Assembly: GCA_045546615.1 (NCBI GenBank) | Contig: JAZQDD010000020.1 | Coordinates: 972 to 64,971 of the forward strand | Source of the DNA: Eubacteriales bacterium | GTDB lineage: Bacteria; Bacillota; Clostridia; Oscillospirales; CAG-272 | DNA: 64,000 bases | Direction: 5' to 3' | Shown: positions 1-16,699 of the stretch, piece by piece | How the letters are laid out: each line of letters begins with the position of its first letter | Numbering within the stretch: position 1 is the first letter of the stretch | The notes under the pieces: model-generated | The model's input: only the letters and a program-made list of their open reading frames with translations | What the model was told of the DNA's origin: nothing | Database searches by the model: none | Made by a program: the position numbers and the translations under genes

Positions 1-2
1 TA

Positions 3-2738: not shown

Positions 2739-2775
2739 AAAAGATTCAAATTTGTTGGGGCAACCTAAGAAAAAA

Positions 2776-2802: not shown

Positions 2803-2805
2803 CAA

Positions 2806-2985: not shown

Positions 2986-3017
2986 ATATATGAGTTGCTT
3001 TTTTGTACTATGAGGCC

Positions 3018-3243: not shown

Positions 3244-3254
3244 TCTTTTTCCTT

Positions 3255-3332
3255 TTCTTTACCACCCCAACCGCCCACTCCCCCGAGCGCGGCTTGCGCG
3301 GCGCGCTCACCCCTTCGCCGTCCTCCGAGGGC
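3255..3332. repeat. GC-rich palindromic repeat module, copy B
   Basis: CCGCCCACTCCCCCGAGCGCGGCTTGCGCGGCGCGCTCACCCCTTCGCCGTCCTCCGAGGG, homologous to 1783-1862. Confidence 0.8.
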
Positions 3333-3503
3333 AAGAGAAACCGTTAGTAAGCACCTTTTTTACGCCCTTTTGGGCTTGAGGGTGCGGCTTTATCACATCA
3401 TCCGAGATCAACTGCCTTGATCGAAATTTCCTCACCAAAGCAATAAAAACTATATGCAGTCAATAAATCACTTTTTGGTTGAGGCATATCATTCATAAAT
3501 TGC

Positions 3504-3532
3504 TTGATTCAAATTCTACCGTGTGCTATAAT
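3504..3532 (+). promoter_or_regulatory. promoter of the 3560 gene
   Basis: TTGATT-N17-TATAAT. It lies inside the N-terminal extension of the longest ORF, which argues for the ATG at 3560. Confidence 0.7.
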
Positions 3533-3559
3533 ATAAATAAATCAACCGAGGGGAAGAAA

Positions 3560-5092
3560 ATGAAAATTCAGATTGCGGAAAATATAAAAAAATTTCGTAT
3601 AGCAAGCGGATATACTCAAAATGAGCTTGCGATACTTTTGTCTGTCTCTCCTCAAGCGGTGAGCCGTTGGGAAAACAGTCAAGCTTTCCCCGATATTACT
3701 CTTTTACCGACGCTTGCAAAGTATCTCAACGTAACTATAGACGAGATCGTGGGGAGTGAAGGGCAACGAAGTGAATGCTTGAAAAAAGAGTTATTCGAAC
3801 GCAAGATGGCAAATATTGACGATGAATCAGAAAGGGTGAAAAATGAACTTCGTATTCTTGTGCTTTATGAAGAATTGGCACATACGGAGTTGCCTTATCT
3901 GATCAGCTATTTTCGGCATTTAATGGATATAAAAGCCTATAAACGGTTTATACTAAATGATTTAGAGAGCCGAATTGAAAACGCGCGGCAAATGATTCGG
4001 GATCGCCTGAGAATATCAAATATGCGTGACCGTGTGACTCTGCTAAGCACCGTGGCCGCCTTCGAGGACGATGAGAACCTGACACGTTGGGCAGACGAAT
4101 ATCGGCTCCCCGAATATATTAGAGCAAACTTTTGGGATGAGCTTTTGCTGACAAGATATACAAGAGAACAAAACGTCAAAAAATTGAGCGAGCAAAACCA
4201 AAAAATCCTGTACGGGCATATCAAAAACACTATTTATTATTTGACCGACAGTATTCACGGTGATATGAGAGCGCGGGGAACAGAATTTAGTGCCCCTGAA
4301 AGATATAAAACGGCGCTTGATACGCTTTCCCTTTATTCGACACAAGTGGACGATATCTTTATCTTTGTGCGAATTATCGCAGAGGTGAGATACGCCGAAG
4401 CGCTTTTGGTGAATGAGCGCATTGAAGAAAGTCTTTCATCGTTTGCGTTAGCCGCCGAGCATCTTTCGGTATTGCATCAATTACCCGACGGGGGAGTGCT
4501 TTGCGGTTCTGTTTTTGCGCTCAGTTCGGTTCGTCTTGTCGTTGACGGTATGGATAAGCTTGAAAAATGCGTGTTCAATTTGGGCGGCTATGATGAAAAT
4601 CCGCTCTTTGACAAAATTCGCACAGACAAGCGTTTTATAGAATTTATAGAGGTGTTAGAAAAATTTCTTCCGCGGCGCAGATCGGGATGTTGGGTGAATG
4701 AGAAAGGGAGAGATACCCTCGATGCTCAATGGGAAATGCTTCTAAACAGGGCAAGCAAAGAGGCAGATAAGCTTTCGGATGGCAACGTTGTGGTGATTCT
4801 TACCGCCAAGGGAGCGGTTGCTTCGATTTCGTTTCAGAATATACATTCCGCAATTGAGGCAGAAAATGCGATGAAGTTTCTTATTGAGAAAAAGAAAAGG
4901 GGAGATGACAAAATCGAGCGGCTGATATGTATGCGGCACGATGGTGGTATTGATCTGCCTTCATTTGCTTTCAGAGAGGCGCTTGTGGCTATTGACAGCA
5001 AGAATCTTTTGACGCAGATGCTTTTGAATGGATCAAGCGGGTATGTTGTCAAGACGGTAAACGTGACGATGCCTAAAGGATACAAAAGTTAA
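3560..5092 (+). CDS. XRE-family HTH regulator with large (~440 aa) uncharacterised C-terminal region
   Basis: GAGGGGAAG RBS before ATG 3560. HTH motif LAILLSVSPQAVSRWENSQAFPDITLL. The upstream TTG at 3479 is rejected (promoter inside, no RBS). Confidence 0.85.
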   Translation: MKIQIAENIKKFRIASGYTQNELAILLSVSPQAVSRWENSQAFPDITLLPTLAKYLNVTIDEIVGSEGQRSECLKKELFERKMANIDDESERVKNELRILVLYEELAHTELPYLISYFRHLMDIKAYKRFILNDLESRIENARQMIRDRLRISNMRDRVTLLSTVAAFEDDENLTRWADEYRLPEYIRANFWDELLLTRYTREQNVKKLSEQNQKILYGHIKNTIYYLTDSIHGDMRARGTEFSAPERYKTALDTLSLYSTQVDDIFIFVRIIAEVRYAEALLVNERIEESLSSFALAAEHLSVLHQLPDGGVLCGSVFALSSVRLVVDGMDKLEKCVFNLGGYDENPLFDKIRTDKRFIEFIEVLEKFLPRRRSGCWVNEKGRDTLDAQWEMLLNRASKEADKLSDGNVVVILTAKGAVASISFQNIHSAIEAENAMKFLIEKKKRGDDKIERLICMRHDGGIDLPSFAFREALVAIDSKNLLTQMLLNGSSGYVVKTVNVTMPKGYKS

Positions 5093-5136
5093 AGAACCTT
5101 TTGTAAGACTCGAATTTGTTGGGATAACTCAGAAAA

Positions 5137-5190
5137 AGGGGGTGAGTCAAATGCAAAAATGCATTTGGTACTCACCCCCTTTTTCTTTTT
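5137..5190. terminator. bidirectional terminator hairpin
   Basis: AGGGGGTGAGT...ACTCACCCCCT with an inner palindrome CAAATGCA-AAAA-TGCATTTG. A-tract upstream and T-tract downstream. Sits between convergent genes. Confidence 0.8.
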
Positions 5191-5195
5191 TGCTT

Positions 5196-5468
5196 TTACG
5201 CCGCGAGGGCTTTTTCGCGCCTTGCGTTGATAAAGTATAGCCCAAGGTCGATGCTTACGACGATCAAATTGATAAAGTAAAGCGCTGTTACGTAATTTAA
5301 TTGATGATTCACGATCTTTCCGATAATTCCCGAAATATATCCTATTATGATAGCAATGATGAAGACGACGCTTTTGCCTTTAGTTGATTTTGAGCTTATG
5401 CTTTTGTACACGGAGATGGGCCAAGACATACCAAAGCATAGGAGCATAATAATTTCGAAGATCTGCAT
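5196..5468 (-). CDS. small 3-TM membrane protein, PQ-loop/SemiSWEET-like
   Basis: AGGAGG RBS. 90 aa. Motif SWPISVYKSISSKSTKGKS resembles the PQ-loop motif. Three hydrophobic segments. Confidence 0.6.
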   Translation of the reverse strand: MQIFEIIMLLCFGMSWPISVYKSISSKSTKGKSVVFIIAIIIGYISGIIGKIVNHQLNYVTALYFINLIVVSIDLGLYFINARREKALAA

Positions 5469-5505
5469 TTTTTGTTCCTCCTGATAAGATACCTTAATTA
5501 TACTC

Positions 5506-5534
5506 TTGACAAATGCAAAAGTAAAATATATAAT
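5506..5534 (+). promoter_or_regulatory. promoter of the LysR gene
   Basis: TTGACA-N17-TATAAT. Confidence 0.65.
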
Positions 5535-5547
5535 TTTTATTAAAATG

Positions 5548-5562
5548 ATAGGTTATTCCTAT
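5548..5562. promoter_or_regulatory. LysR-type T-N11-A box
   Basis: ATAGG-TTATT-CCTAT perfect dyad in the divergent intergenic region, 15 nt upstream of the LysR start. Confidence 0.55.
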
Positions 5563-5576
5563 ATAATGGAGGAGTT

Positions 5577-6434
5577 ATGGACATACAAAAGCTGAAATAT
5601 TTCCAAACAACAGCCCGACTTGAGCATATCACACGGGCTTCGGAGGTGTTACATATATCCCAACCGTCTCTTACCCAAGCGATACATTTACTTGAAAGTG
5701 AGCTTGGCGTTCCGCTGTTCAGGCGTGAGGGGAGAAAAGTAGCATTAACCGAGTTTGGCGTTTATTTGAAGCAGAGGTTAGATGTGTTAATACCCGAATT
5801 TGACCATCTTGCGGTTGAAATCGAGGAATTAAAGCAATCGCTTACCAAAAAGATAAGACTTAATATACTGGCAGCTTCATCCTTTGTCATAAATGCGATC
5901 ATGGAATACAAAAAGGAGAACAGCGAGGCTATCTTTGATTTCGAGCAAAACGAAACAAAAAGCAACTGCGACATACTGATCACAACGAACGGCTTGAATA
6001 GCGATTCTGAAAACAAATATTCTCGCCGTTTTGTGAAAAAAGAAAATATTTACCTTGCAGTGCCGAAAGATTCAAAGTATGCCGAGGTTTCATCTATTGA
6101 TTTGAGCGCAGTAAAGGACGAAAGCTTTATTATGCTATCCAACACCCGTTTGTTCGGTGCTATATGCAGCAGGTATTGTTCTATAGCAGGATTTTATCCC
6201 AAGGTCATATTTGAATCCGATTCGCCGACCGCGGTGCAGAATATCATCAGCATGGGCGCGGGAATAGCGTTTTGGCCCGAGCATTCGTGGGGAAAGCTAC
6301 ACAATGAAAATTTGAAGCTCGTTACCATTGCCGAGCCTGTTTGCGAGCGAGATCTGATCGTGGAATTACACGAGAGGATGCCTAAATCCATTTATGCAGA
6401 AGATTTTTACAACTTTCTGATAAATAAACTATAA
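5577..6434 (+). CDS. LysR-family transcriptional regulator
   Basis: GGAGG RBS. N-terminal LKYFQTTARLEHITRASEVLHISQPSLTQAIHLLESELGVPLF. 285 aa, typical LysR-type regulator length. Confidence 0.92.
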   Translation: MDIQKLKYFQTTARLEHITRASEVLHISQPSLTQAIHLLESELGVPLFRREGRKVALTEFGVYLKQRLDVLIPEFDHLAVEIEELKQSLTKKIRLNILAASSFVINAIMEYKKENSEAIFDFEQNETKSNCDILITTNGLNSDSENKYSRRFVKKENIYLAVPKDSKYAEVSSIDLSAVKDESFIMLSNTRLFGAICSRYCSIAGFYPKVIFESDSPTAVQNIISMGAGIAFWPEHSWGKLHNENLKLVTIAEPVCERDLIVELHERMPKSIYAEDFYNFLINKL

Positions 6435-6525
6435 GCGCATAATGGAGCAGAAGAATAGCTTTCCAACGCAAAAGCCCTTGATTTAAGGCTTTTTGGGGGA
6501 AAAAGCGAAAGCAACATAATGTTGC

Positions 6526-6554
6526 TTGACTTTTATGCCGATTATTCTTATAAT
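6526..6554 (+). promoter_or_regulatory. promoter of the 6584 gene
   Basis: TTGACT-N17-TATAAT. Confidence 0.7.
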
Positions 6555-6583
6555 GTTGATAAAGACATAAGGGGGATTTCTCG

Positions 6584-6976
6584 ATGGTAGAAAAAAATAT
6601 TAAAAATTTCAGGGAGCAAAAGGGTATTAGCCAATCTGAACTCGCGGAAAAATTAAACGTTACAAGACAAGCGGTCTCGAATTGGGAAACGGGAAAAACG
6701 CAACCCGATATAGACACGCTTCATAAAATTGCGGACATACTTGAAGTAAGCATTGATGAACTGATTTACGGCAATAAAAGAACGAATCGCGTGGAAAATA
6801 AATATTATCACATTCAAAATATTACCAATAAAGCAGGCAAAGGGATCGGCTTTGGCGCGGTTTTAGCTATGGTCATATCCTACGTAAACTGGCACTCTAT
6901 CGGTTGGGCGATCCTTCACGGCATCTTTAATTGGGGATACGTTATATATTATATCATTAAATACGGTTGGTCGTAA
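6584..6976 (+). CDS. XRE HTH protein with C-terminal membrane anchor
   Basis: GGGGGA RBS. HTH motif LAEKLNVTRQAVSNWETGKTQPDIDTL. C-terminal hydrophobic GFGAVLAMVISYV...GWAILHGIFNWGYVIYYII. Confidence 0.85.
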   Translation: MVEKNIKNFREQKGISQSELAEKLNVTRQAVSNWETGKTQPDIDTLHKIADILEVSIDELIYGNKRTNRVENKYYHIQNITNKAGKGIGFGAVLAMVISYVNWHSIGWAILHGIFNWGYVIYYIIKYGWS

Positions 6977-7026
6977 GTGCGAGAAAAGGTTCAAAGTCCG
7001 CTATCAATAAAGTAAATCAGAGGGTC

Positions 7027-7057
7027 AAAGGGGCTGCGTTATTGGCGCAGTCCCTTT
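7027..7057 (+). terminator. terminator-like hairpin
   Basis: AAAGGGGCTGCG-TTATTGG-CGCAGTCCCTTT. Confidence 0.55.
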
Positions 7058-7146
7058 CTAAAATATTGACACTGTGCGCTGTGCGTGATATAATTAATTA
7101 AAAGGAAAAAATTGCTTTTGCAAGCTTGAAAACAGAGGTTAGCGCG

Positions 7147-8256
7147 ATGGAAAAAATACTTACAGCCTTTTGCTTTACGGACATACACAACCAGCAAGCG
7201 ATGCTTGACTATCCCACCACGGTGCGCCGTTCGCTCATCCAAGCCGCGGAGCTTGCCGCGGCGGAGTTTGGGCTTGCCGACATTGCGATAGTCGGCGGGG
7301 ATAACGTGTCCGACTACCCGCATTGGAACAAGTCCTGCGCTTTGCCGAAAAAGAATTTCCTTGACTTAAAGGCTAAAATGCACGCTTGCATTTCGGACTG
7401 CACCAAGGACGGCAGGGTGCTGTACGTTGCGGGCAACAACGATATGATACTCGGCGACATCGGAACGGACGAAAACGAGCCGTATAATACCACCGATTTT
7501 TACGATCTTATGGACGGCGCATTCGGTGAGCTTCCCGACGGCGAAAAGATCATCCTTACCTCGCGCGAAAAGCCCAATGAGCTGTATTGGGGTGCGTTCC
7601 ATTACGTTGTGGGCGGTATTGACTTTATCGGCATCAATATACACCCCGACACCGCGTTCAACACCCACGAGGGGTATTACAGCGACGAAACGCTCCGCTG
7701 GGTAAAGAATAAGCTCGATGAAATCGACCCCGACGGGCATAAATGCGTATTTGTCGTAGGGCATTTGTCGGCAATATATTATTTTAACAACGGAAATCTT
7801 TGCGAAACGATGATAAACGGCGACCGCGGCTTGTTTTACGATATATTCCGCGGACACAAAAACGCCTTTTACCTCTACGGTCACGTTCACGGCGAGGATT
7901 CCTGCTACAAGGAGCATTCATCGGGCGCGGTTTTGCACATCGACGGGGACAATAAGCCCCTCGGACGCAATTTGAGTGAGGCGGATTCGCGCGGTAAGGA
8001 GTACGAGTATTCATTCGTCCACATGGGCGGACTTCGTCCCTTTGGCGGTAAATATTTCGAGAATGACGGGCTTGAGGGCTTTGGCGGCGGCACAGAGAAA
8101 AAGTATTTCCCCTGCACCGCAACGCCGCGCCTTGTGCAGTTTTTGGTTTTTGAGGTCTACGGCGACCGCGTGGTTTTTCACGTTAGAAACACGGGCGAGC
8201 ATGAGGAATATAACAAAAATGACAGACTTGCGCAATATACGGTGTATCTGACGTAA
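7147..8256 (+). CDS. metallophosphoesterase (calcineurin-like)
   Basis: AGAGG RBS before ATG 7147 (the TTG at 7126 is less likely). Motifs FTDIHN, GGDNVSD, AGNND, VGHLS, GHVHGE. Confidence 0.85.
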   Translation: MEKILTAFCFTDIHNQQAMLDYPTTVRRSLIQAAELAAAEFGLADIAIVGGDNVSDYPHWNKSCALPKKNFLDLKAKMHACISDCTKDGRVLYVAGNNDMILGDIGTDENEPYNTTDFYDLMDGAFGELPDGEKIILTSREKPNELYWGAFHYVVGGIDFIGINIHPDTAFNTHEGYYSDETLRWVKNKLDEIDPDGHKCVFVVGHLSAIYYFNNGNLCETMINGDRGLFYDIFRGHKNAFYLYGHVHGEDSCYKEHSSGAVLHIDGDNKPLGRNLSEADSRGKEYEYSFVHMGGLRPFGGKYFENDGLEGFGGGTEKKYFPCTATPRLVQFLVFEVYGDRVVFHVRNTGEHEEYNKNDRLAQYTVYLT

Positions 8257-8394: not shown

Positions 8395-9456
8395 ATGCAG
8401 AAGAATATTTTGCTCATACTAACGGGCGGTACGATATGCTCATTTGCCGACAGCAAGGGAGAGCGCGATGCTGATACCTTGGCGGCGAGGGCTTTGATAA
8501 TCGATAATTTCAGAAACGGCACTTCGCCGTACAGAAGCAAGGAGTGCGTCAAATTCGATTCAAAATTCCCCTTGAATATTTTAAGCGAAAATCTTACGCC
8601 CGACCATTGGAACACGCTCATCGGGGAAATGAGGACGTATGATCTCTCATCCTATGACGGAGTCATTATACTTCACGGTACTGATACGCTGGCGTACACG
8701 GCGGCGCTATTTTCGCTTTTGCTTGCGGGTATTTGCGTTCCTGTGATATTCGTTTCCAGCCAGCTTGGGCTGAATGAGGCCGGAACGAACGGCAACGATA
8801 ATTTCAAAGCCGCGGTGGAGCTTATAGTCAACGGGATATCGCCAAACGTGTATGCGGTATACAGAAACGACGAGACGATGGGCAACGAGACGAAAAAAAC
8901 GCTGTATCTGCACTATGCCGCGCATTTGTTGCAGTGTGCCAACCACTCCGATAATTTTTACAGCTGTGATATGCAAGAGATAGCGTTTGAAAACGCCGCG
9001 CACGCGGGGCGCAGATGCGCATCCGCGCAAATGATTTTTAATGACGCTCGTTTTGACGGCATAAGCGCAAACGTCCTCAAGCTGTCGCCGTACGTTGGTA
9101 TAGATTACTCCAAATATTCGTTGGATGGGGTGGATGCCGTGGTGCATGGGACGTATCATTCAAGCACCGTGCCGACAGATCCTTGCGGCAGATCGACGGA
9201 TATCAGCAAGCATTCGATAATGTATTTGAAGAAAAAATGCGGCGAGGCGGGCGGCATCCCCCTCTTTATCGAGCCATGCAGCAAAACAGCGTATATAAGC
9301 ACGGGAAACGCTTTGCGCGGCGGAATACTGCCGATAAGGGGGTTAAGCTCCGAAATGGCGTATGTAAAAACGCTTTTGGGATGCTCTTTGGGGCTTCGAG
9401 CAGAAGAGCTGTACAATTTTATTAATAAAACAAACGTCAATGATGAGTTTGTGTGA
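8395..9456 (+). CDS. type I L-asparaginase family protein (AnsA/GatD-like)
   Basis: G-rich RBS before ATG 8395. Signature LILTGGTICS, second signature ILHGTDTLAYTA, and SSQLGLNEAGTNGNDNF. Confidence 0.85.
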   Translation: MQKNILLILTGGTICSFADSKGERDADTLAARALIIDNFRNGTSPYRSKECVKFDSKFPLNILSENLTPDHWNTLIGEMRTYDLSSYDGVIILHGTDTLAYTAALFSLLLAGICVPVIFVSSQLGLNEAGTNGNDNFKAAVELIVNGISPNVYAVYRNDETMGNETKKTLYLHYAAHLLQCANHSDNFYSCDMQEIAFENAAHAGRRCASAQMIFNDARFDGISANVLKLSPYVGIDYSKYSLDGVDAVVHGTYHSSTVPTDPCGRSTDISKHSIMYLKKKCGEAGGIPLFIEPCSKTAYISTGNALRGGILPIRGLSSEMAYVKTLLGCSLGLRAEELYNFINKTNVNDEFV

Positions 9457-9478: not shown

Positions 9479-9507
9479 TTGACATCGTTTGAAAAACGTG
9501 ATATAAT
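9479..9507 (+). promoter_or_regulatory. promoter of the Asn T-box leader
   Basis: TTGACA-N17-TATAAT. Confidence 0.75.
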
Positions 9508-9513: not shown

Positions 9514-9760
9514 AAATAAAGACAGTGATGAAGCGAGTACTGTGAGTATCTTGTGTACAGAGAGCCGTGGGTGCTGAGACACGGCACAAGACTTATGGGA
9601 AAAACACTTCGGAGTCGGCGGAAGAAAGCTACGGCGAGTAGAACCGCACGTTCGTCGCGTAAAGACGCAGTTGAGTGGATCGCCCTTGGCGGTCAATTTG
9701 GGTGGTATCGCGGAAGCTTGCCTTTCGTCCCATGCGGGGCGGAAGGCTTTTTGTTTTTAA
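9514..9760 (+). promoter_or_regulatory. T-box riboswitch leader, specifier AAC (Asn)
   Basis: AGAGAG bulge and GGTGCTGAGA distal loop. T-box sequence AATTTGGGTGGTATCGCGG (9695-9713). Terminator GCCTTTCGTCCC-ATGC-GGGGCGGAAGGC plus TTTTT. AAC-A (9603-9606) sits directly before helix CTTC, which pairs with GAAG. Confidence 0.9.
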
Positions 9761-9804: not shown

Positions 9805-11580
9805 ATGTTGAGAACACATAATTGTAATGAAATAAGGCCCGAGCATATCGGTCAGAAGGTCGTTTTGACGGGATGGATGGATACGGTCCGCGATCACGGC
9901 GGTATTCTTTTCGTTGACCTTCGCGACCATTTCGGAACTACGCAGGTCGTTTTTTCCGATGATAAGATGCTTAACGGTATCCTCAAGGAGACCGTTGTGC
10001 TTATCGAGGGTGTTGTAACCGAGAGAAGCGAGGACACCGTAAACCCCAAGATCGAAACGGGAATGGTAGAGGTAAAGGCTGACCGCATTGAGGTTCTCGG
10101 CCCTTGCCTTTTCGGACTTCCTTTTGATATCGACGCGTCTACCGCCACCCGCGAGGACGTAAGACTTAAATATCGCTATCTTGACTTGAGAAACAGAAAG
10201 ATACACGATAATATCGTGCTTCGTTCAAAGATACTCAGCTATCTGCGTTCGCAGATGGAGGAGCTGGGCTTTGTTGAGATACAAACTCCCATTCTTACCG
10301 CATCGTCTCCTGAGGGCGCGCGCGACTATCTTGTACCCAGCCGTAAGCACAAGGGCAAGTTCTATGCGCTTCCGCAGGCTCCCCAGCAGTTCAAGCAGCT
10401 GCTTATGGTATCGGGCTTTGACCGCTATTTCCAGATAGCTCCTTGCTTCCGTGACGAGGACGCGCGTCAGGACCGTTCCCCCGGAGAATTCTATCAGCTC
10501 GACTTTGAGATGTCCTTCGCAACGCAGGAGGATGTATTCGAGGTTGCCGAGAGTGTTGTATACAATACTTTCTCCAAGTTCAGCAACAAGAAGGTCTCAA
10601 AGCCCCCCTTCAAGAGAATAACTTTTGCCGAGTCCATGCTTAAATACGGAACGGATAAGCCCGACCTCAGAAACCCGCTTGAGATCAAGGATCTTACGGA
10701 CTTCTTTGCCGCAAATGAATTTCTTACCGTAAACGGCAGAACCGTACCTTTCAAGAACAAGCTCGTTCGCGGTATCGTTGCCAATTATCTCGTTAAGAGA
10801 GACGGCGAGGGCGACGGCAAAAAGGCGTTTGAGAAAGCTATCGACACCTATTCAAGAAGCATAGGTATGAAGTTTGGTTGCGGTTATATCACGCTTGAGG
10901 ACGGCGAGTTCAAGGGCCCGATCGCAAAGTTCCTTACCGATGAGCAAAAGAAGGAGCTGTGCGAGCTTTGCGCAATCAAGGAGGGCGATTCTCTGTTCTT
11001 CATCAGCGACAACGCCTCCGTAATCAACAAGCTTGCGGGCGAAATGCGCACTTGGATAGCCAACGAGCTTGGTCTTATTAATAAGGATGCGTTTGAGTTC
11101 TGCTTTATCGTTGATTTCCCGATGTATGAGCTTAATCCCGAGACTAACAAGATCGACTTTACGCACAATCCCTTCTCCATGCCTCAGGGCGGAATGGATG
11201 CGCTTCTTAACAAAGATCCTCTTGAAATTTTTGCATACCAGTATGATATCGTCTGCAACGGAGTAGAATTATCCTCGGGAGCTGTCAGAAACCACAACCC
11301 CGAGATAATGAGAAAGGCGTTTGAGATCGCGGGCTACGGCGAGGACGACCTCAAGGCGAAATTCGGCGCACTCTACACGGCATTCTCCTACGGCGCACCG
11401 CCTCACGCGGGCATGGCTCCCGGCGTTGACAGAATGATAATGCTCATTGCCGAGGAGGAGACTATCCGCGACGTTATCGCATTCCCGCTTAACGGTAACG
11501 CGCAAGACCTCATGATGGGCGCACCCGGTGAGGTCACCGAACAACAGCTCCGCGAAGTTCATATAAAAGTAAGAGATTAA
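9805..11580 (+). CDS. aspS: aspartate--tRNA ligase (bacterial type, probably non-discriminating given the context)
   Basis: GGGAGGAAG RBS. 591 aa. Motifs FVDLRDHFG, LPQAPQQFKQLLMVSG, FRDEDARQDRSPGEFYQLD. Confidence 0.96.
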   Translation: MLRTHNCNEIRPEHIGQKVVLTGWMDTVRDHGGILFVDLRDHFGTTQVVFSDDKMLNGILKETVVLIEGVVTERSEDTVNPKIETGMVEVKADRIEVLGPCLFGLPFDIDASTATREDVRLKYRYLDLRNRKIHDNIVLRSKILSYLRSQMEELGFVEIQTPILTASSPEGARDYLVPSRKHKGKFYALPQAPQQFKQLLMVSGFDRYFQIAPCFRDEDARQDRSPGEFYQLDFEMSFATQEDVFEVAESVVYNTFSKFSNKKVSKPPFKRITFAESMLKYGTDKPDLRNPLEIKDLTDFFAANEFLTVNGRTVPFKNKLVRGIVANYLVKRDGEGDGKKAFEKAIDTYSRSIGMKFGCGYITLEDGEFKGPIAKFLTDEQKKELCELCAIKEGDSLFFISDNASVINKLAGEMRTWIANELGLINKDAFEFCFIVDFPMYELNPETNKIDFTHNPFSMPQGGMDALLNKDPLEIFAYQYDIVCNGVELSSGAVRNHNPEIMRKAFEIAGYGEDDLKAKFGALYTAFSYGAPPHAGMAPGVDRMIMLIAEEETIRDVIAFPLNGNAQDLMMGAPGEVTEQQLREVHIKVRD

Positions 11581-11601: not shown

Positions 11602-11883
11602 ATGAATAAAGAAACACTTGGAAGACTTGAGCTTCTGAATCAGCTCAAGCTCACGGAAGAGCAAAGGAGCGACGTGCTGTCTTTCTTTGAGAGCAGGGAA
11701 AGAGACATGGAGCAGGTAAACACAATAGATACCGCCGACACGGAACGCATGGTTCACGTTATGCCGATTATGACGGTTGTCCGCGAGGACGTAGTTGTTC
11801 AGAACTTCTCGCGCGAGGCACTTCAAGAGGGCGCACCCGAAACCGACGAGGGCTATTGGTGCGTTCCCAAGGTCGTTGAATGA
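11602..11883 (+). CDS. gatC: aspartyl/glutamyl-tRNA amidotransferase subunit C
   Basis: AAGGAG RBS. 93 aa. Position between aspS and gatA/gatB, and typical GatC size. Confidence 0.8.
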   Translation: MNKETLGRLELLNQLKLTEEQRSDVLSFFESRERDMEQVNTIDTADTERMVHVMPIMTVVREDVVVQNFSREALQEGAPETDEGYWCVPKVVE

Positions 11884-11895: not shown

Positions 11896-13071
11896 ATGAT
11901 GGAAGAAAAAAAGATCATTATTGCCGATGATATGATACTCACGGTGGGAAGCCCCACCACCGCAGGCTCAAAAATGCTTGACGGATATAACAGCTTGTTT
12001 GAGGCAGAGGTGCTTACTCGCCTTAATGCCGCAGGATATCAGCTCGGCGGCAAAGCCGACGTTGGCGAGTTCGCCATAGACCTTCTCGGCGAGACTTCAT
12101 ATAAGGGTGCTTTGGTTGCTGACGGCAAGATCAAAAATGCCGCGGCAGAGGCAATCAAGGCAAGCGATGCCGCAGCGGCAATTTGCCTTGACGTAAACGG
12201 CAGCGTCAGACGCGCCGCCGCCCAAAGCGGACTTGTCAGCCTCAAGGCTACCTACGGTACTGTTTCCCGCTACGGTACGGTTCCCGTTGCTTGCTCGGGT
12301 GAGACTGTAAGCATTCTTGCCGCAGATGCCGAGGTCTGCCGTGACGTTCTTGACGTTGTGGCAGGAAATGATAAAAAGGACGGAACGAGCCTTTCCGACG
12401 ATATCTGCGCCAAGGTCAAAAAGGGCGCGGAGTATGCTCCCGTCCGCAAGGTCGCGCTCATTTCTTCTATGATGAATGGCGCGGACGCTGACGTAAAGGA
12501 AAAGATCGACGCGGCAGTTGCCGCCATGGAGAGCAAGGGAGTTGAGGTAACTTCCGTAGATAACGGCGTTATCCCCATGGCAAGGGGCGCGTGGAACGTT
12601 CTTATGAGCGCGGAGCTTTGCAATAACGTTTCGCGTTACGACGGCGTGAAGTACGGATACCGTTCCAATACTTTTTCCAATATCGAGGAGCTTTACACCA
12701 ACAGCCGTACCGAGGCGTTCGGTGATTTGCTCAAGGCGGCAATACTCTTTGGCTCTGATACGCTCTCAAGCGAGAACTATGACGGCGTATACGATAAGTG
12801 CCTGAGAATGCGCAGAGTCATTGTTGATGAATTTTCCAAGATATTTGAAGAATTCGACGCGGTCATTATGCCGAGCTGTTCGTCCATGTCGTATGCGGCA
12901 GAGGACGTTGCGGCAAACAAATATATTTCCTTTGAGGAGAATTACTATACCGCACCTGCGTCCATTACGGGATTGCCCGCAGTAGTGGCTGGCGGCGTTC
13001 AGGTGATCGGAAGAGCTTTTTCGGAGCAGGCTTTGCTGGATTTAGCGAGAATTATTAAGGAGGGCAGATAA
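11896..13071 (+). CDS. gatA: GatA-like amidase-signature protein, short form lacking the GGSSGGS motif
   Basis: GGAGGATGGG RBS. Collinear with GatA (TTAGSKML, NGSVRRAAA, LKATYGTVSRYG, SRYDGVKYGY). Only 391 aa, and the Gly/Ser-rich loop is replaced by DGKIKNAAAEAIKAS. Confidence 0.8.
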   Translation: MMEEKKIIIADDMILTVGSPTTAGSKMLDGYNSLFEAEVLTRLNAAGYQLGGKADVGEFAIDLLGETSYKGALVADGKIKNAAAEAIKASDAAAAICLDVNGSVRRAAAQSGLVSLKATYGTVSRYGTVPVACSGETVSILAADAEVCRDVLDVVAGNDKKDGTSLSDDICAKVKKGAEYAPVRKVALISSMMNGADADVKEKIDAAVAAMESKGVEVTSVDNGVIPMARGAWNVLMSAELCNNVSRYDGVKYGYRSNTFSNIEELYTNSRTEAFGDLLKAAILFGSDTLSSENYDGVYDKCLRMRRVIVDEFSKIFEEFDAVIMPSCSSMSYAAEDVAANKYISFEENYYTAPASITGLPAVVAGGVQVIGRAFSEQALLDLARIIKEGR

Positions 13072-13072
13072 G

Positions 13073-14515
13073 ATGAGATACGAAACTGTCATAGGACTTG
13101 AGGTTCACGTTGAGCTGGCAACAAAGTCAAAGATATTTTGCTCTTGCTCCGCCCATTCTTACGGCGCTGACCCCAATACCCACGTTTGTCCCGCCTGCTG
13201 CGGAATGCCCGGAATGCTTCCCGTAGTAAACAAAAGCGTTGTTGACTACGGTATGAAGGCGGGTATGATGCTCAATTGCCATATAAACAGAGTTACAACC
13301 TTTGACAAGAAGAGCTATTATTACCCCGATCTTCCCGCCGCGTATCAAACCACGCAGTGGTTTGCTCCCGTTGCGGTAAACGGACTCGTTGAGATAAAAA
13401 CGTCAAAAGGAACAAAAAACGTCAGAATAAAGCAGATCCACATGGAAGAGGATGCAGGAAAGCTGGTTCACGACATCCGCGAGGATACGACTCACGTTGA
13501 CTTCAACCGCACGAGCGTTCCGCTTATAGAAATAGTAAGCCAGCCCGATCTGTCAAGCGCAGAGGAGGTCGAGGCTTATCTTGAAAGACTCAAGACACTG
13601 CTTCGTTATGCGAGAGTTGCGGAGTGCGAAATGGCACACGGAACTATGCGTTGCGACGTTAACCTTTCCGTACGTCCCGAGGGCAGTGACAAGCTCGGCG
13701 TTAGAACCGAGATAAAGAATATGAACTCCATAGAGGCTATAAAGCGCGCTATTGAGTATGAAACCGCAAGACATATCGACGCTATTGAGAACGGCACGGA
13801 GGTTCTCCGTCAGGAGACCAGACGCTGGGATGATATCAAGGCGAGAAGCTACGCCATGAGAACCAAGGAAACTGCGGGCGACTACCGCTATTTCCCAGAT
13901 CCCAACGTAATGCCCGTAGAGATCGACGAGGATTGGTTTGAGAATGTCAAAGCATCTCTCCCCGAATTCCCCGAGGTCAAGCTCGAGAGATATATGCGCG
14001 ATTACGGACTTAGCGAATATGACGCAACACAGCTTACCAAGAGCATTGCGCTTTGCGACTGCTTTGAGGATGCGTACCGCGTTTGCAAGTCGGCAAAGGA
14101 TGCGGCTAACTGGATGATATCCGAGGTTATGAGCATATTGAACGCCAGAAAAATGACGTATGATATGCTTGATATATGCGGAAATTCTCTCGGAAACCTG
14201 ATACTTCTCGTGTCAGAGGGTAAGGTCGGCAGAGCAAATGCCAAGAAAATACTCTTTGCCATGTTTGACGACTCATCCATCGAGCCTTACGCTTACGCCG
14301 AGGCTAACGGATATATCATTTCAAACGACGTATCCAAGATCGAGTCTGTTGTAAAAGCCGTTCTCGAGGCAGATCCCGCTTCGGTTGCTGACTATAAGGG
14401 CGGAAAAGAAAAGGCGCTTATGGCACTTTTCGGAAGATGTATGAAAGACCTCAAGGGCAACTGCGATCCGCAGACCTTGAGAGGTATTTTGATCGATCTT
14501 ATCTCCAAATCGTAA
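13073..14515 (+). CDS. gatB: aspartyl/glutamyl-tRNA amidotransferase subunit B
   Basis: 480 aa. YETVIGLEVHVELATKSKIFCSC, followed by the GatB/YqeY C-terminal region. Start is 2 nt after the gatA stop. Confidence 0.95.
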   Translation: MRYETVIGLEVHVELATKSKIFCSCSAHSYGADPNTHVCPACCGMPGMLPVVNKSVVDYGMKAGMMLNCHINRVTTFDKKSYYYPDLPAAYQTTQWFAPVAVNGLVEIKTSKGTKNVRIKQIHMEEDAGKLVHDIREDTTHVDFNRTSVPLIEIVSQPDLSSAEEVEAYLERLKTLLRYARVAECEMAHGTMRCDVNLSVRPEGSDKLGVRTEIKNMNSIEAIKRAIEYETARHIDAIENGTEVLRQETRRWDDIKARSYAMRTKETAGDYRYFPDPNVMPVEIDEDWFENVKASLPEFPEVKLERYMRDYGLSEYDATQLTKSIALCDCFEDAYRVCKSAKDAANWMISEVMSILNARKMTYDMLDICGNSLGNLILLVSEGKVGRANAKKILFAMFDDSSIEPYAYAEANGYIISNDVSKIESVVKAVLEADPASVADYKGGKEKALMALFGRCMKDLKGNCDPQTLRGILIDLISKS

Positions 14516-14617: not shown

Positions 14618-15802
14618 ATGAAAAATTTTAAGAATCATATTGAATTCAGCACAAAGGAAGAGCTTCATTTTGAGTCTAAAGCTGTCCACGGCGCGCTTGG
14701 ATGCGAGCCGTTGACGGGTGCTGTAAGTATGCCTATCTATCAGTCAGCCACATTCCGCCACCCCGAGCTTGGAAACTCCACGGGTTTTGATTACAGCCGT
14801 CTTTCAAACCCCACAAGGCTGGAGCTGGAGCGCACCGTCGCCATTCTTGAGGGCGGCGTGCAGGGCTTTGCCTTTTCAAGCGGACAGGCGGCAAATATGG
14901 CTGTTTTCTCCCTGCTCAACGTGGGGGATCACGTCGTTATGTCCGACGATATATACGGCGGAACGCTCAGAATCATAAATGACGTTTTCGGAAAATACGG
15001 TATCAAGCACACCTGTGTTGACATGGGCGATCTTGACGCGGTAAGGGCGGCTATCACCCCCGAAACGAAAATGCTTTACGTTGAAACGCCCACAAACCCG
15101 ATGATGAAGGTTGCGGATATCGCCGCAGTCAGCGCGATAGCAAAGGAGATCGGCGCGTTGTGTGTTGTTGACAACACGTTCCTGACGCCGTATTACCAAA
15201 GACCGCTGGAGCTTGGCGCTGATATTGTAACCCACAGCTCAACGAAATACCTCGGCGGTCATAATGATACCATTTCGGGCATCGTTGTGGTAAAGGACGA
15301 TCTTGACATCTGCGCAAAGATCAGGGTGCATACCAAATCCTACGGCAGTCAGCTTGCTCCCTTGGACAGCTGGCTTGTGATACGCGGAATCAAAACGCTT
15401 GCCGTTCGTATGGACAAGCATACGGAAAACGCCAAAAAGGTTGCCGCTTGGCTCAGAACGCAGGAAAAGGTCAAAAAGGTCTACTACGTCGGCTTTGAGG
15501 ATCACGAGGGCTATGCCATCACCAAAAAGCAGACTACGGGCTTTGGCGGTATGATATCCTTTAGTGTTGACAGCGTTGATACGGTCAAAAAGATACTCAA
15601 AAACGTTGATATGGTCATGTTTGCGGAGAGTCTTGGCGGTACGGAAACGCTCATCACCTATCCCACTACGCAAACTCACGAGGATACCCCCAAGCACATC
15701 AAGGACGCTCTCGGTATAACCGACTGCTTCCTGCGCCTTTCCGTGGGTATTGAGAACGCAGAGGACATAATTGCCGACCTTGACAGGGCGATGAACGCTT
15801 AA
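14618..15802 (+). CDS. Cys/Met-metabolism PLP-dependent enzyme (cystathionine beta-lyase/gamma-synthase family)
   Basis: GGAGGG RBS. 394 aa. Contains YSRLSNPTR and the PLP-lysine motif HSSTKYLGGHND. Confidence 0.88.
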   Translation: MKNFKNHIEFSTKEELHFESKAVHGALGCEPLTGAVSMPIYQSATFRHPELGNSTGFDYSRLSNPTRLELERTVAILEGGVQGFAFSSGQAANMAVFSLLNVGDHVVMSDDIYGGTLRIINDVFGKYGIKHTCVDMGDLDAVRAAITPETKMLYVETPTNPMMKVADIAAVSAIAKEIGALCVVDNTFLTPYYQRPLELGADIVTHSSTKYLGGHNDTISGIVVVKDDLDICAKIRVHTKSYGSQLAPLDSWLVIRGIKTLAVRMDKHTENAKKVAAWLRTQEKVKKVYYVGFEDHEGYAITKKQTTGFGGMISFSVDSVDTVKKILKNVDMVMFAESLGGTETLITYPTTQTHEDTPKHIKDALGITDCFLRLSVGIENAEDIIADLDRAMNA

Positions 15803-15805
15803 ACG

Positions 15806-16699
15806 ATGAAATTTACTAAAATGCAGGCGTTTGGAAACGATTACGTTTACATTAACGCCATAAACGAGGAGCTGTGCGATCTTCCCACACTTGCGAGGTT
15901 CGTCAGCGACCGTCATTTTGCCATCGGCTCGGACGGAATGGTGCTTATCTGCCCGTCGCAGAGGGGCGATTTCCGTATGCGGATGTTCAACCCCGACGGA
16001 ACGGAGGGCGAAATGTGCGGAAACGCGCTCAGGAGCGTTGGAAAATACGTTTATGACCACGCGCTGACGGACAAGACCGAGCTTGTTATCGAAACTCTCG
16101 GCGGAATGCAAAAGCTCGCTCTTACCGTCGAGGACAGAGAGCCGAAGGACGGCGAGAGGGCGATGCCGTACAAAAACCGAGGATTTGTATCGAATATCAA
16201 AGCCGACATCGGTGCGCCCTGCCTTGACACGTCAAAAATCCCCGTAAACACGGCACTTCCCGAGTTCGTGGAGCAAAGGGTTCGTGTGCTTGACAGAGAG
16301 TTTTTCATAACCGCCGTATCGTGGGGAAATCCGCACGTTGCGATGTTTGTTGACGACGTTGCCTCGCTTGACGTTGAAAAATACGGCAAGGCGATAGAGT
16401 ATATGACGGAGCTTTTTCCGAACAAGACAAACGTCACGTTTGCCGAGCTTGTGTCGCGCGACGTGATAAAGATGCGTGAGTGGGAGCGAGGCACGGGTGA
16501 GACTATCGGATGCGGAACGGGCTGTTGCACCGCCGCCGTTGCGGGCGTGCTTACGGGCAGATGCGACAGGCGCGTGACCGTCCATCAGATAGGCGGGCCG
16601 CTTCTTGTCGAGTGGGACGAAGAAAGCGGACGTATGCTTATGACAGGCCCCAGCCACAACGTGTTTGAGGGCGAGATAGATATTTCGCATTTGTTTTAA
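15806..16699 (+). CDS. dapF: diaminopimelate epimerase
   Basis: FTKMQAFGNDYVYIN, with catalytic Cys motifs MCGNALR and GCGTGCC. Starts 4 nt after the preceding stop. Confidence 0.92.
   Translation: MKFTKMQAFGNDYVYINAINEELCDLPTLARFVSDRHFAIGSDGMVLICPSQRGDFRMRMFNPDGTEGEMCGNALRSVGKYVYDHALTDKTELVIETLGGMQKLALTVEDREPKDGERAMPYKNRGFVSNIKADIGAPCLDTSKIPVNTALPEFVEQRVRVLDREFFITAVSWGNPHVAMFVDDVASLDVEKYGKAIEYMTELFPNKTNVTFAELVSRDVIKMREWERGTGETIGCGTGCCTAAVAGVLTGRCDRRVTVHQIGGPLLVEWDEESGRMLMTGPSHNVFEGEIDISHLF

What the first reader, a model, noticed from the sequence alone, without database searches (positions are those of the whole stretch)
11896..13071. GatA in the Asn T-box operon is truncated and lacks the Gly/Ser-rich amidase-signature loop
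The protein aligns along its length with GatA (TTAGSKML, NGSVRRAAA, LKATYGTVSRYG, SRYDGVKYGY), but it differs in two ways.
- It is only 391 aa, missing the ~60-90 N-terminal residues of typical ~485-aa GatA.
- The canonical GGSSGGSAAAVA segment, which carries the cis-Ser of the Ser-cisSer-Lys triad, is replaced by DGKIKNAAAEAIKAS.

The Lys (GSK) and the nucleophile-position Ser (NGS) appear retained. Glutaminase activity of this subunit may therefore be impaired or altered, while gatC and gatB look canonical.
Basis: partly seen in the sequence, partly recalled or inferred. Interest (0 to 1): 0.62.

Follow-up and report, generated by a model that had tools for sequence, protein, structure and literature searches.

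The report
Catalytically dead GatA in Asn-tRNA operon
The GatA subunit of this asparagine-regulated tRNA amidotransferase operon has lost its glutamine-splitting active site yet is conserved in many uncultured gut and rumen Clostridia, so the enzyme must get its ammonia elsewhere, most plausibly from an asparaginase-like enzyme that repeatedly sits next to the operon.

Summary
ORF 11896-13071 (391 aa) has a GatA fold and sits in a T-box(Asn)-aspS-gatC-gatA*-gatB operon. It lacks about 68 N-terminal residues and the whole GGSSGGS loop.

One point is wrong. The "GSK" lysine is not the catalytic lysine. The catalytic one (S. aureus K79, yeast K52, motif "KDN") is Asp11 here. Two of three triad residues are therefore gone, as are both glutamine-binding residues (Arg to Ala282, Asp to Asn349).

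The same losses occur in all 121 close homologue clusters, and 20 of them have also lost the nucleophile Ser. More distant operon copies keep none of the triad.

The gene is under purifying selection but evolves about 2.5-3 times faster than aspS and gatB. I read it as a non-catalytic scaffold or tunnel subunit.

A type-I asparaginase-like gene with an intact Thr nucleophile neighbours the operon:
- 5 of 9 loci found through gatA*;
- 4 of 4 loci found through the asparaginase;
- 0 of 77 canonical gatA loci;
- three different gene arrangements.

This suggests a GatD-like ammonia supplier, with free ammonia as the main alternative. I could not test whether the genome holds a second, canonical gatA. 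I found no published description.

The parts
8395..9456 (+). ansL: type-I L-asparaginase-like amidohydrolase (353 aa), in its own transcription unit just upstream of the T-box operon. Candidate ammonia supplier.
   Evidence: - Pfam Asparaginase N-terminal domain, 104 bits. It falls below the NCBIfam type-I asparaginase cut-off (87 vs 260.5) and the GatD cut-off (76 vs 310).
- AF2 model: pLDDT 94.6. Best Foldseek match is the T. kodakarensis L-asparaginase (TMq 0.77); GatD ranks 13th (TMq 0.72).
- The TGGT and HGTDT motifs are invariant in 121 homologues.
- It neighbours the pseudo-GatA operon in 5 of 9 gatA*-seeded loci and 4 of 4 ansL-seeded loci, and in 0 of 77 canonical gatA loci.
9479..9507 (+). 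Promoter-like site for the operon: TTGACA, 17 nt, TATAAT, with an extended -10 TG.
   Evidence: 12 of 12 consensus matches, 9 nt upstream of the T-box start. This is a consensus scan only.
9516..9757 (+). T-box leader with an Asn (AAC) specifier and a terminator hairpin (9720-9747) followed by a T-run.
   Evidence: - RF00230 scores 118 bits against a gathering score of 93.
- 'GAAAAACAC' is invariant in six homologous leaders while the flanks vary.
- Terminator: 12-bp stem plus TTTTTGTTTT.
- T-boxes lie at the same place in L001, L003, L090, L091 and L092.
9805..11580 (+). aspS: bacterial-type aspartyl-tRNA synthetase (591 aa). It is presumed non-discriminating because tRNA-Asn controls it.
   Evidence: NF001750 scores 758.5 bits against a cut-off of 443. 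It is 86-90% identical across related loci. The non-discriminating specificity is inferred, not tested.
11602..11883 (+). gatC (93 aa), canonical.
   Evidence: TIGR00135 scores 60 bits against a cut-off of 47.1 and covers positions 1-93 of 93.
11896..13071 (+). gatA*: short GatA-fold pseudo-amidase (391 aa).
- Catalytic Lys replaced by Asp11.
- cis-Ser loop replaced by 'DGKIKNAAAE'.
- Nucleophile Ser103 kept.
- Gln-binding Arg replaced by Ala282 and Asp by Asn349.
   Evidence: - Pfam Amidase 168 bits, covering profile positions 56-445 of 445.
- TIGR00132 scores 245.7 against a cut-off of 481.1.
- AF2 model: pLDDT 88.7, pTM 0.90. The ten best Foldseek matches are all GatA chains, TMq 0.79-0.88.
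13073..14515 (+). gatB (480 aa), canonical kinase/transamidase subunit.
   Evidence: NF004012 scores 588.6 bits against a cut-off of 338. Pfam finds GatB_N and GatB_Yqey. It is 84-88% identical across related loci.

Best explanation
gatA* encodes a non-catalytic GatA. It keeps the GatA fold and its place in a GatC-GatA*-GatB complex, acting as scaffold and probably still forming the GatA half of the ammonia tunnel. It can no longer bind or hydrolyse glutamine.

Proposed working of the operon:
1. When tRNA-Asn is uncharged, the T-box switches the operon on.
2. AspRS charges tRNA-Asn with Asp.
3. GatB phosphorylates the Asp-tRNA-Asn and amidates it with ammonia that GatA* did not produce.

The most likely ammonia source is the co-localised type-I asparaginase-like enzyme (ansL). 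It would hydrolyse Asn or Gln, functionally like archaeal GatD. Free ammonia, which is abundant in gut and rumen habitats, is the fallback or alternative.

Shown:
- loss of the active-site and substrate-binding residues;
- conservation of that state across the family;
- conserved operon and T-box;
- purifying selection;
- statistical linkage of the gene with ansL.

Inferred:
- complex formation;
- use of external ammonia;
- ansL as the donor;
- non-discriminating AspRS.

My confidence that GatA* is dead as a glutaminase is about 0.85. My confidence that ansL is the donor is about 0.45.
For: Active-site loss:
- Query Asp11 aligns to the triad Lys, the GGSSGGS loop is absent, and Ala282 and Asn349 stand at the Gln-binding Arg and Asp positions. 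Residue roles are from PMC4027206 and PMC2330236.
- Close family, 121 clusters at 65% identity or more:
  - Lys column: Asp 118, Glu 1.
  - Gly/Ser motif: 0 of 121.
  - Arg column: Ala, Thr or Ser in 121.
  - Asp column: Asn in 121.
  - Nucleophile: Ser 101, Tyr 7, Ala 6, Thr 6, Asn 1.
- Canonical GatAs (75) have K 71, S 73, R 75 and D 68 at these columns.
- The distant operon copies L004-L006 have Asp / Leu / Ala or Thr at the three triad positions.

Still a GatA-type subunit:
- Foldseek's top ten matches are all GatA chains, TMq 0.79-0.88.
- The order aspS-gatC-gatA*-gatB is conserved in every related locus examined.
- GatA-specific motifs are invariant in the family (KPTYGxVSRYG, SRYDGVKYGYR, SRTEAFG).

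Selection:
- pN/pS is 0.30 with synonymous sites saturated, so omega is roughly 0.1 or less.
- dN is 0.26, against 0.08 for aspS and 0.10 for gatB.
- Canonical GatA and GatB normally diverge in step (difference +3 +/- 3.8 identity points). Here GatA* lags GatB by 18 points. That fits loss of catalytic constraint with a structural role kept.

External ammonia is feasible:
- NH4Cl bypasses the glutaminase step in yeast GatFAB (PMC4027206).

Link to ansL:
- It is adjacent in the window, L001/L002, L091, L092 and L004.
- 4 of 4 ansL-seeded look-ups land beside a triad-less gatA* operon.
- It appears in three arrangements: upstream on the same strand, downstream of gatB, and convergent.
- It is absent from 77 canonical gatA loci. 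Fisher p = 3.6e-6, without phylogenetic correction.
- The ansL nucleophile Thr and the HGTDT motif are invariant.
Against: - There is no biochemical evidence, and no evidence for physical contact between ansL and GatA*-GatB.
- ansL is missing within 8-10 kb in 4 of 9 gatA*-seeded loci (L003, L090, L005, L006).
- In the window ansL lies outside the T-box-controlled unit, upstream of the promoter-like site at 9479-9507.
- ansL lacks the N-terminal domain of GatD. It is closer to free-standing archaeal-type asparaginases than to GatD.
- Its Thr-Lys-Asp lysine could not be aligned.
- ansL identity does not track operon identity. L091's ansL is 40% identical to the window's although its aspS is 89% identical. 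Linkage may therefore reflect metabolic convenience rather than a complex.
- A canonical gatA elsewhere in the genome could not be excluded.
- Ser103 is retained in 101 of 121 clusters, which leaves some unexplained constraint at the old active site.
Confidence: 0.6

Rival explanations
1. The amidotransferase depends on free ammonia only. GatA* is a dead scaffold, and GatB uses ambient NH3/NH4+ from the gut or rumen. ansL is merely a metabolically related neighbour, for example one that makes Asp for AspRS or salvages Asn. It is not a dedicated donor.
For: - NH4Cl supports transamidation when the glutaminase step is bypassed (PMC4027206).
- 4 of 9 gatA*-seeded loci have no ansL within 8-10 kb.
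- An independent Peptococcaceae gatC-gatA*-gatB operon with a full-length triad-less GatA has no ansL nearby.
- In the window, ansL is outside the T-box unit.
Against: - ansL adjacency is strong and independent of gene arrangement: 4 of 4 ansL-seeded loci, against 0 of 77 canonical loci.
- In L004, ansL follows gatB by about 80 nt on the same strand, which suggests co-transcription.
Confidence: 0.27
2. GatA* is still a hydrolase with a rebuilt active site. It might use the retained Ser103 or newly fixed cysteines (Cys133, Cys242 in 'AELCNN'), perhaps on a different amide donor.
For: - Ser103 is kept in 101 of 121 close clusters.
- Cys133, Cys148 and Cys242 are invariant in 75 aligned family members.
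- 'C-N-N' replaces the canonical 'S-S-N' in many distant short forms.
Against: - Ser103 is Tyr, Ala, Thr or Asn in 20 close clusters, and is not Ser in 19 of 26 distant short forms.
- The Lys, the cis-Ser and both substrate-anchoring residues are gone everywhere.
- Cys133 is not conserved in the distant short forms.
- No known amidase-signature enzyme works without the Lys and the cis-Ser. This last point rests on established knowledge of the family, not on a test made here.
Confidence: 0.06
3. The operon is a redundant second copy. A canonical GatA encoded elsewhere supplies glutaminase activity by pairing with this GatB, or a complete second GatCAB does the work. GatA* would then be regulatory, or on its way to being lost.
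For: - Clostridia can carry several GatCAB copies and a second AspRS under an Asn T-box. Clostridium acetobutylicum is the example (Saad et al. 2012, known to me and cited in PMC4206432).
- The rest of the genome could not be searched. The window itself holds no other amidase.
Against: - GatA* is conserved in more than 120 clusters and in distant lineages, with intact reading frames and omega well below 1. It is therefore not decaying.
- It always occupies the GatA slot between gatC and gatB, with tight or overlapping gene junctions.
- The T-box control implies that the operon is needed when tRNA-Asn is uncharged.
Confidence: 0.07

Closest known systems
Bacterial GatCAB amidotransferase (S. 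aureus 2DF4, T. maritima 3AL0, P. aeruginosa 4WJ3)
   Same: - Same three genes in the same order.
- Same GatA fold (TMq 0.87).
- Canonical GatB and GatC.
- GatA-specific motifs are retained.
   Different: - GatA* lacks the Lys and the cis-Ser of the Ser-cisSer-Lys triad, the Gly/Ser-rich loop, the Gln-binding Arg and Asp, and about 68 N-terminal residues.
- It fails the TIGR00132 cut-off.
T-box(Asn)-controlled aspS2-gatCAB operon of Clostridium acetobutylicum (Saad et al. 2012, J Biol Chem 287:20382; reference seen in PMC4206432, content from my own knowledge)
   Same: - An Asn-specifier T-box leader controls an AspRS gene together with gatCAB genes in a Clostridium-class organism.
- The purpose is tRNA-dependent Asn and Asn-tRNA synthesis.
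   Different: - As far as I know, that operon encodes a catalytically normal GatA and is associated with an asparagine synthetase gene.
- Here GatA is a pseudo-enzyme and the associated gene is an asparaginase homologue.
Archaeal GatDE (GatD is an asparaginase-type glutaminase; PMC2330236; PDB 1ZQ1, 2D6F)
   Same: An asparaginase-family enzyme with a Thr nucleophile would supply ammonia to a GatB/GatE-type kinase-transamidase. ansL has the same two-domain fold (TMq 0.72 to GatD).
   Different: - ansL lacks GatD's N-terminal domain and is closer to free asparaginases.
- The partner is GatB, not GatE (NF003107: 163 bits against a cut-off of 456).
- A dead GatA is retained.
- No interaction has been shown.
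Ammonia-using enzymes that keep a dead glutaminase module or have lost it: mammalian carbamoyl-phosphate synthetase I, and ammonia-dependent NadE versus glutamine-dependent NAD synthetase (PMC3376133 for NAD synthetase; CPS I from my own knowledge)
   Same: The amidotransferase keeps or sheds an inactivated glutaminase part and works with ammonia from another source.
   Different: These are different protein families, and none is tRNA-dependent.
AtzE-AtzG (PDB 6C62): a GatA-derived 1-carboxybiuret hydrolase with a GatC-like partner
   Same: A GatA descendant that keeps a GatC-like partner and has moved away from the classical GatA role. It appeared as a Foldseek hit.
   Different: - AtzE is an active amidase that has left the GatB context.
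- GatA* is inactive and has stayed in the GatB context.

Membership tests
GatA (TIGR00132 equivalog) | Whole-protein score at or above the curated cut-off | tested here: not met
   245.7 bits against a cut-off of 481.1.
GatA / amidase-signature enzymes | Catalytic Lys of the Ser-cisSer-Lys triad (S. aureus K79, yeast K52) | tested here: not met
   The residue is Asp11 here. The column is Asp or Glu in 119 of 119 aligned close homologues and Lys in 71 of 75 canonical GatAs. The triad is defined in PMC4027206.
GatA / amidase-signature enzymes | cis-Ser within the Gly/Ser-rich signature loop (GGSSGGS) | tested here: not met
   The loop is replaced by 'DGKIKNAAAE' with a 4-5 residue deletion. There is no Ser within 8 residues of position 79. 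The motif is absent in 121 of 121 close homologues.
GatA / amidase-signature enzymes | Nucleophile Ser (S. aureus S178) | tested here: met
   Ser103 is present in 'VNGSVRR'. It is not conserved across the family: 20 of 121 close clusters and 19 of 26 distant short forms lack it.
GatA | Gln-recognising Arg and Asp (yeast R334 and D418; S. aureus R358 and D425) | tested here: not met
   Ala282 and Asn349 stand at these positions. The columns are Ala/Thr/Ser and Asn in 121 of 121 close homologues, and Arg in 75 of 75 and Asp in 68 of 75 canonical GatAs. Roles are from PMC4027206.
GatA | GatA three-dimensional fold | tested here: met
   AF2 model with pLDDT 88.7. The ten best PDB matches are all GatA chains, TMq 0.79-0.88.
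GatA | Gene position between gatC and gatB | tested here: met
   True in the window and in every related locus examined.
Pfam Amidase (PF01425) | Score above the gathering threshold | tested here: met
   168.3 bits against 27. The match covers only profile positions 56-445 of 445.
GatCAB complex | Canonical GatB and GatC partners | tested here: met
   GatB NF004012: 588.6 against 338. GatC TIGR00135: 60 against 47.1.
GatCAB complex | Physical heterotrimer and glutamine-dependent transamidation | not testable with these tools
   Needs co-purification and enzyme assays, or a multimer structure prediction.
T-box leader (RF00230) | Covariance-model score above the gathering score, a specifier codon, and a terminator | tested here: met
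   118 bits against 93, over the full model. The AAC specifier context is invariant in six leaders. The terminator lies at 9720-9747.
GatD (archaeal GatDE glutaminase subunit), considered for ansL | NCBIfam GatD cut-off, N-terminal GatD-specific domain, GatE partner | tested here: not met
   - NF003217 scores 75.7 against 310, and TIGR02153 scores 72.9 against 324.
- ansL starts at the TGGT motif (residue 10), so it has no extra N-terminal domain.
- The partner is GatB, not GatE.
Type I L-asparaginase (TIGR00519 / PF00710), considered for ansL | Family score; nucleophile Thr (TGGT); Thr-Asp of HGTDT; triad Lys | tested here: inconclusive
   - Pfam N-terminal domain is met (104 against 22.5).
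- The TIGR00519 cut-off is not met (87.2 against 260.5).
- TGGT and HGTDT are invariant in 121 sequences, but the Lys region is not conserved or alignable.
- The fold matches type-I asparaginases (TMq 0.77).

The most novel reading that the evidence does not exclude
A bacterial hybrid of the two known tRNA-dependent amidotransferase designs. The GatCAB complex would keep a dead, N-terminally trimmed GatA purely as scaffold and tunnel. A separate asparaginase-family enzyme (ansL) would dock on it, or act right beside it, to deliver ammonia from Asn or Gln. This would be a convergent, GatD-like solution in Clostridia. In organisms without AsnRS, it could also turn imported Asn into both substrates, Asp and NH3, for Asn-tRNA synthesis.
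Probability: 0.3. Interest if true: 0.85.

Novelty: new variant of a known kind. Interest (0 to 1): 0.7.

Why it matters
**Enzyme mechanism.** GatCAB is the textbook case of a glutaminase coupled through a 30 Å ammonia tunnel to a tRNA-bound reaction. A large natural family that keeps GatA but has destroyed its active site would show that the GatA body is needed for something other than catalysis, such as assembly, GatB stability or the tunnel. It would also show that the amide donor step can be outsourced.

**Evolution.** If the linked asparaginase is the donor, bacteria have re-created the archaeal GatD logic. That bears on how GatCAB and GatDE evolved.

**Annotation.** These proteins are labelled 'hypothetical protein' or 'amidase' because they fail the GatA model cut-off. 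Pathway reconstructions for many gut and rumen Clostridia MAGs will therefore wrongly score the indirect Asn-tRNA pathway as incomplete. Alternatively they may assume a glutamine dependence that cannot exist.

**Drug discovery.** GatA-site inhibitors would not act on such enzymes.

Tried and rejected
- **Longer N-terminus or frameshift: rejected.** gatC is full length and ends 12 nt before an RBS-preceded ATG.
- **Second amidase in the window: none.** tblastn found nothing.
- **Second canonical gatA in the same genome: not answerable.**
It returned mostly canonical GatAs from unrelated phyla and only three family members.
  - The metagenome scan gave six irrelevant or weak loci.
  - A look-up of the exact protein P0001 found no record.
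- **Class-II synthetase 10 kb downstream in L091:** checked as a possible AsnRS, but it is LysRS.
- **Literature:**
  - Searches for GatCAB plus pseudoenzyme, and for asparaginase plus GatCAB operon, found nothing relevant.
  - Searches for the S. aureus residue numbers found nothing directly. The yeast GatFAB paper supplied the residue roles instead.
  - The C. acetobutylicum T-box papers, the Aquifex structure paper and the H. pylori tunnel paper are not held.
- **dN/dS with Biopython:** timed out. I replaced it with my own Nei-Gojobori script. Synonymous sites are saturated, so only pN/pS and an upper bound on omega are given.
- **ansL as a true GatD orthologue: rejected.** It has no GatD N-terminal domain, falls below the cut-offs, and is closer to free asparaginases.
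  - Mapping ammonia-tunnel or interface residues, because no coordinates were available and my recall of tunnel residues is unreliable.
Full report
**What is there**

The finding lies in a compact plus-strand gene cluster.
- An asparaginase-like gene, ansL, runs from 8395 to 9456.
- A consensus promoter-like site (TTGACA, 17 nt, TATAAT) lies at 9479-9507.
- A T-box leader lies at 9516-9735. RF00230 scores 118 bits against a gathering score of 93. Its terminator hairpin is at 9720-9747.
- Four genes follow: aspS (9805-11580), gatC (11602-11883), the GatA-like ORF (11896-13071, 391 aa) and gatB (13073-14515).

AspRS, GatC and GatB all pass their NCBIfam equivalog cut-offs. The GatA-like protein does not: TIGR00132 scores 245.7 against 481.1. 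It does pass Pfam Amidase, but only over profile positions 56-445.

The T-box specifier context GAAAAACAC is invariant in six homologous leaders whose flanks vary. By the usual codon-plus-purine rule the specifier is AAC, which is Asn.

**Checking the observation**

The short length is real. gatC is complete, its stop is 12 nt before the gatA* ATG, and a GGAGGA ribosome-binding site sits between them.

phmmer against solved structures aligns query 12-378 with S. aureus GatA 80-463. About 68 N-terminal residues are absent, along with small internal and C-terminal deletions.

The stretch equivalent to PGGSSGGSAAAVA reads ADGKIKNAAAEAI and carries a 4-5 residue deletion. The cis-Ser lies 24 residues before the nucleophile in amidase-signature enzymes:
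- yeast S130 and S154 (PMC4027206);
- malonamidase S131 and S155 (mutant titles).

The corresponding position here is Ile79, and there is no Ser within eight residues of it. The nucleophile Ser is retained as Ser103. S. aureus Ser178 is the nucleophile according to PMC2330236.

**The correction**

- That column (S. aureus K94) varies among canonical GatAs: K 50, R 16, others 9 of 75.
- The column of the 'KDN' lysine (S. aureus K79) is Lys in 71 of 75 canonical GatAs.
- The yeast enzyme's catalytic set is K52-S130-S154, and the phmmer match to yeast GatA starts at query 11 = chain 52.
- Query residue 11 is Asp.

Two of the three triad residues are therefore missing.

The two residues that hold the substrate glutamine are also replaced. 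These are yeast R334 and D418, which correspond to S. aureus R358 and D425. Here they are Ala282 and Asn349.

**Is it a one-off?**

No. A search of 5.8 billion proteins returned more than 120 clusters at 65-100% identity. All are 376-406 aa long, and all come from uncultured Clostridia or Ruminococcaceae in gut and rumen data. Where they are named, they are called 'hypothetical protein'.

| Residue (S. aureus numbering) | 121 close clusters | 75 canonical GatAs |
|---|---|---|
| Triad Lys K79 | Asp 118, Glu 1 | Lys 71 |
| Gly/Ser motif | absent in 121 | present (used to define this set) |
| Nucleophile S178 | Ser 101, Tyr 7, Ala 6, Thr 6, Asn 1 | Ser 73 |
| Gln-binding R358 | Ala 111, Thr 9, Ser 1 | Arg 75 |
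| Gln-binding D425 | Asn 121 | Asp 68 |

An exhaustive search of 50%-identity representatives found a wider set of short forms (344-431 aa, 33-58% identical) with the same pattern. In these the nucleophile is usually lost as well.

Three distant genomic copies keep none of the triad: they have Asp, Leu, and Ala or Thr at the three positions. Two are from Acutalibacteraceae MAGs and one is from a MAG labelled Lachnospiraceae.

**Fold and selection**

An AlphaFold2 model has pLDDT 88.7 and pTM 0.90. Its ten best PDB matches are all GatA subunits, with TMq 0.79-0.88.

Comparisons among six related operons gave the following:

| Gene | Mean amino-acid identity | pN/pS |
|---|---|---|
| aspS | 0.89 | 0.10 |
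| gatB | 0.86 | 0.13 |
| gatC | 0.74 | 0.22 |
| gatA* | 0.68 | 0.30 |

Synonymous sites are saturated. The gene is therefore clearly under purifying selection, yet it evolves about 2.5-3 times faster than its catalytic partners.

In 54 canonical loci, GatA and GatB identities track each other. The mean difference is +3 +/- 3.8 points, and -4.8 at high identity. The 18-point lag here is unusual and fits loss of catalytic constraint with a structural role kept.

The GatA-specific motifs KPTYGxVSRYG, SRYDGVKYGYR and SRTEAFG are invariant in the family. The second of these falls in the only low-confidence part of the monomer model (residues 245-275). I take that as a hint of a partner-dependent interface. 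This is an inference only.

**Context**

The order aspS-gatC-gatA*-gatB is conserved in every related locus I examined.

The five close-family loci scanned with Rfam all have a T-box at the same place. The three distant loci show none at the gathering threshold.

Two distant loci, L094 and L096, carry an AspRS-GatC fusion.

**The asparaginase lead**

The upstream gene encodes a two-domain type-I asparaginase fold.
- The AF2 model has pLDDT 94.6.
- The best structural match is the T. kodakarensis L-asparaginase (TMq 0.77). GatD ranks 13th (TMq 0.72).
- The nucleophile motif TGGT and the HGTDT motif are invariant in 121 homologues. The triad Lys region is not alignable.

Starting from gatA*, an ansL homologue is adjacent in 5 of 9 independent loci. 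It lies upstream in the window, L001/L002, L091 and L092, and immediately downstream of gatB in L004.

Starting from ansL, I picked four distant homologues only because their contigs were long. All four lie next to an aspS-gatC-gatA*-gatB cluster, one of them in convergent orientation. All four amidases are triad-less.

None of the 77 canonical gatA loci fetched with 8-kb flanks has an ansL homologue. Fisher p is 3.6e-6, without phylogenetic correction.

This is only suggestive.

Adjacency that survives rearrangement is good evidence of functional coupling.

**Mechanism**

Shown here:
- GatA* cannot be a Ser-cisSer-Lys glutaminase and has lost its glutamine-binding residues.
- It is a conserved, selected member of the gatC-gatA-gatB unit.

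Established elsewhere:
- GatB-type subunits amidate the phosphorylated intermediate with ammonia.
- Ammonium chloride can bypass the glutaminase step (PMC4027206).
- In archaea an asparaginase homologue, GatD, is the ammonia-generating partner (PMC2330236).

Inferred:
- GatA* acts as scaffold or tunnel.
- The ammonia comes from ansL acting on Asn or Gln, or from ambient ammonia.

I favour ansL because of the linkage. However, ansL is not always adjacent, and in the window it lies outside the T-box unit. It lacks GatD's extra domain, and its divergence does not track that of the operon. The free-ammonia model is therefore a serious rival.

A rebuilt active site using Ser103 or the newly fixed Cys242 is unlikely, because those residues are not conserved across the wider family. 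Redundancy with a canonical GatCAB elsewhere could not be tested.

**Comparison with known systems**

The operon works like the Asn-T-box aspS-gatCAB operon of Clostridium acetobutylicum (Saad et al. 2012, reference seen, content from my own knowledge). Its GatA, however, fails four defining GatA features.

It resembles GatDE only in the proposed use of an asparaginase-family donor.

The evolutionary logic recalls carbamoyl-phosphate synthetase I (dead glutaminase domain, from my own knowledge) and ammonia- versus glutamine-dependent NAD synthetases (PMC3376133).

I found no paper describing a triad-less GatA or an asparaginase-linked gatCAB operon. The library is incomplete, so this is not proof of novelty.

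**Verdict**

This is a real, conserved and apparently undescribed variant of a well-known enzyme system.

Interest is 0.7. It is surprising to specialists, it can be tested directly with standard assays, and it has consequences for annotating many gut MAGs. The key mechanistic step, the ammonia source, and the genome-wide context remain unproven.

Noticed in passing
L097:7509-10930 (JGI 3300002505; relatives named Peptococcaceae bacterium): An independent, full-length (460-474 aa) GatA-like protein sits in a gatC-gatA-gatB operon. It has Asp at the triad Lys, no GGSSGGS motif and Ala at the nucleophile. There is no aspS or ansL nearby. Triad-less GatA therefore seems to have arisen more than once.
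   Followed up: partly
proteins P0145-P0262 (representative library): Among the 150 best representatives, 29 full-length GatA-like proteins (415-494 aa) lack the Gly/Ser motif, and most of them also lack the triad Lys or the nucleophile Ser. Apart from the P0145 family (see L097), their genomic contexts are unknown.
   Followed up: no
L094:11795-13870 (-) and L096:9503-11581 (+): AspRS and GatC are fused into one 691-692 aa protein upstream of the pseudo-GatA. It resembles NCBIfam NF009460 but scores far below its cut-off (459 vs 1379). The fusion points to a built-in, transamidosome-like coupling.
   Followed up: partly
window 12628-12720 (GatA* residues 245-275): The most conserved motif of the family (NNVSRYDGVKYGYR...) is the only low-confidence region of the monomer AF2 model (pLDDT 51-66). 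It may be a partner-dependent interface.
   Followed up: no
window 12619-12621 (Cys242), also Cys133 and Cys148: Three cysteines are invariant in 75 family members. 'AELCNN' replaces the canonical 'AEASSN' in many distant short forms as well. The reason is unknown.
   Followed up: no
L091:6399-7496 and L092:1-696 versus window 8395-9456: ansL divergence does not follow the operon. It is 36-40% identical to the window's ansL in L091 and L092, whose aspS is 88-89% identical. It is 51-54% identical in L094 and L096, whose aspS is only 63% identical. This suggests paralogue replacement or transfer of ansL.
   Followed up: no
window 48450-52707: A second T-box leader (RF00230, 104.9 bits) lies upstream of a LeuA-like gene (HMGL-like plus LeuA_dimer). 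A gene fusing an AP_endonuc_2 (xylose-isomerase-like TIM barrel) domain to an AMP-binding enzyme follows. The same gene pair lies near the operon in L093 (1261-5177). The specifier was not read.
   Followed up: partly
window 2803-2876: Gut-1 RNA (RF01706, 64.2 bits against a gathering score of 50). This fits a gut-associated organism.
   Followed up: no
window 1-8000: G+C is 38-45% in the first 8 kb, against about 50-56% in the rest of the window. This region includes an HTH_3-domain protein (3479-5092) and a LysR-type regulator (5577-6434).
   Followed up: no
L025:9216-12095 (Ruminococcus sp. RGIG8501): Downstream of a canonical gatA, a single stop-free frame of about 960 codons matches both GatB and AspRS. 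It may be a GatB-AspRS fusion, or two adjacent genes in one frame.
   Followed up: no
window 14618-16699: A Cys/Met-metabolism PLP enzyme and a diaminopimelate epimerase follow gatB directly. This neighbourhood is not conserved in related loci.
   Followed up: partly
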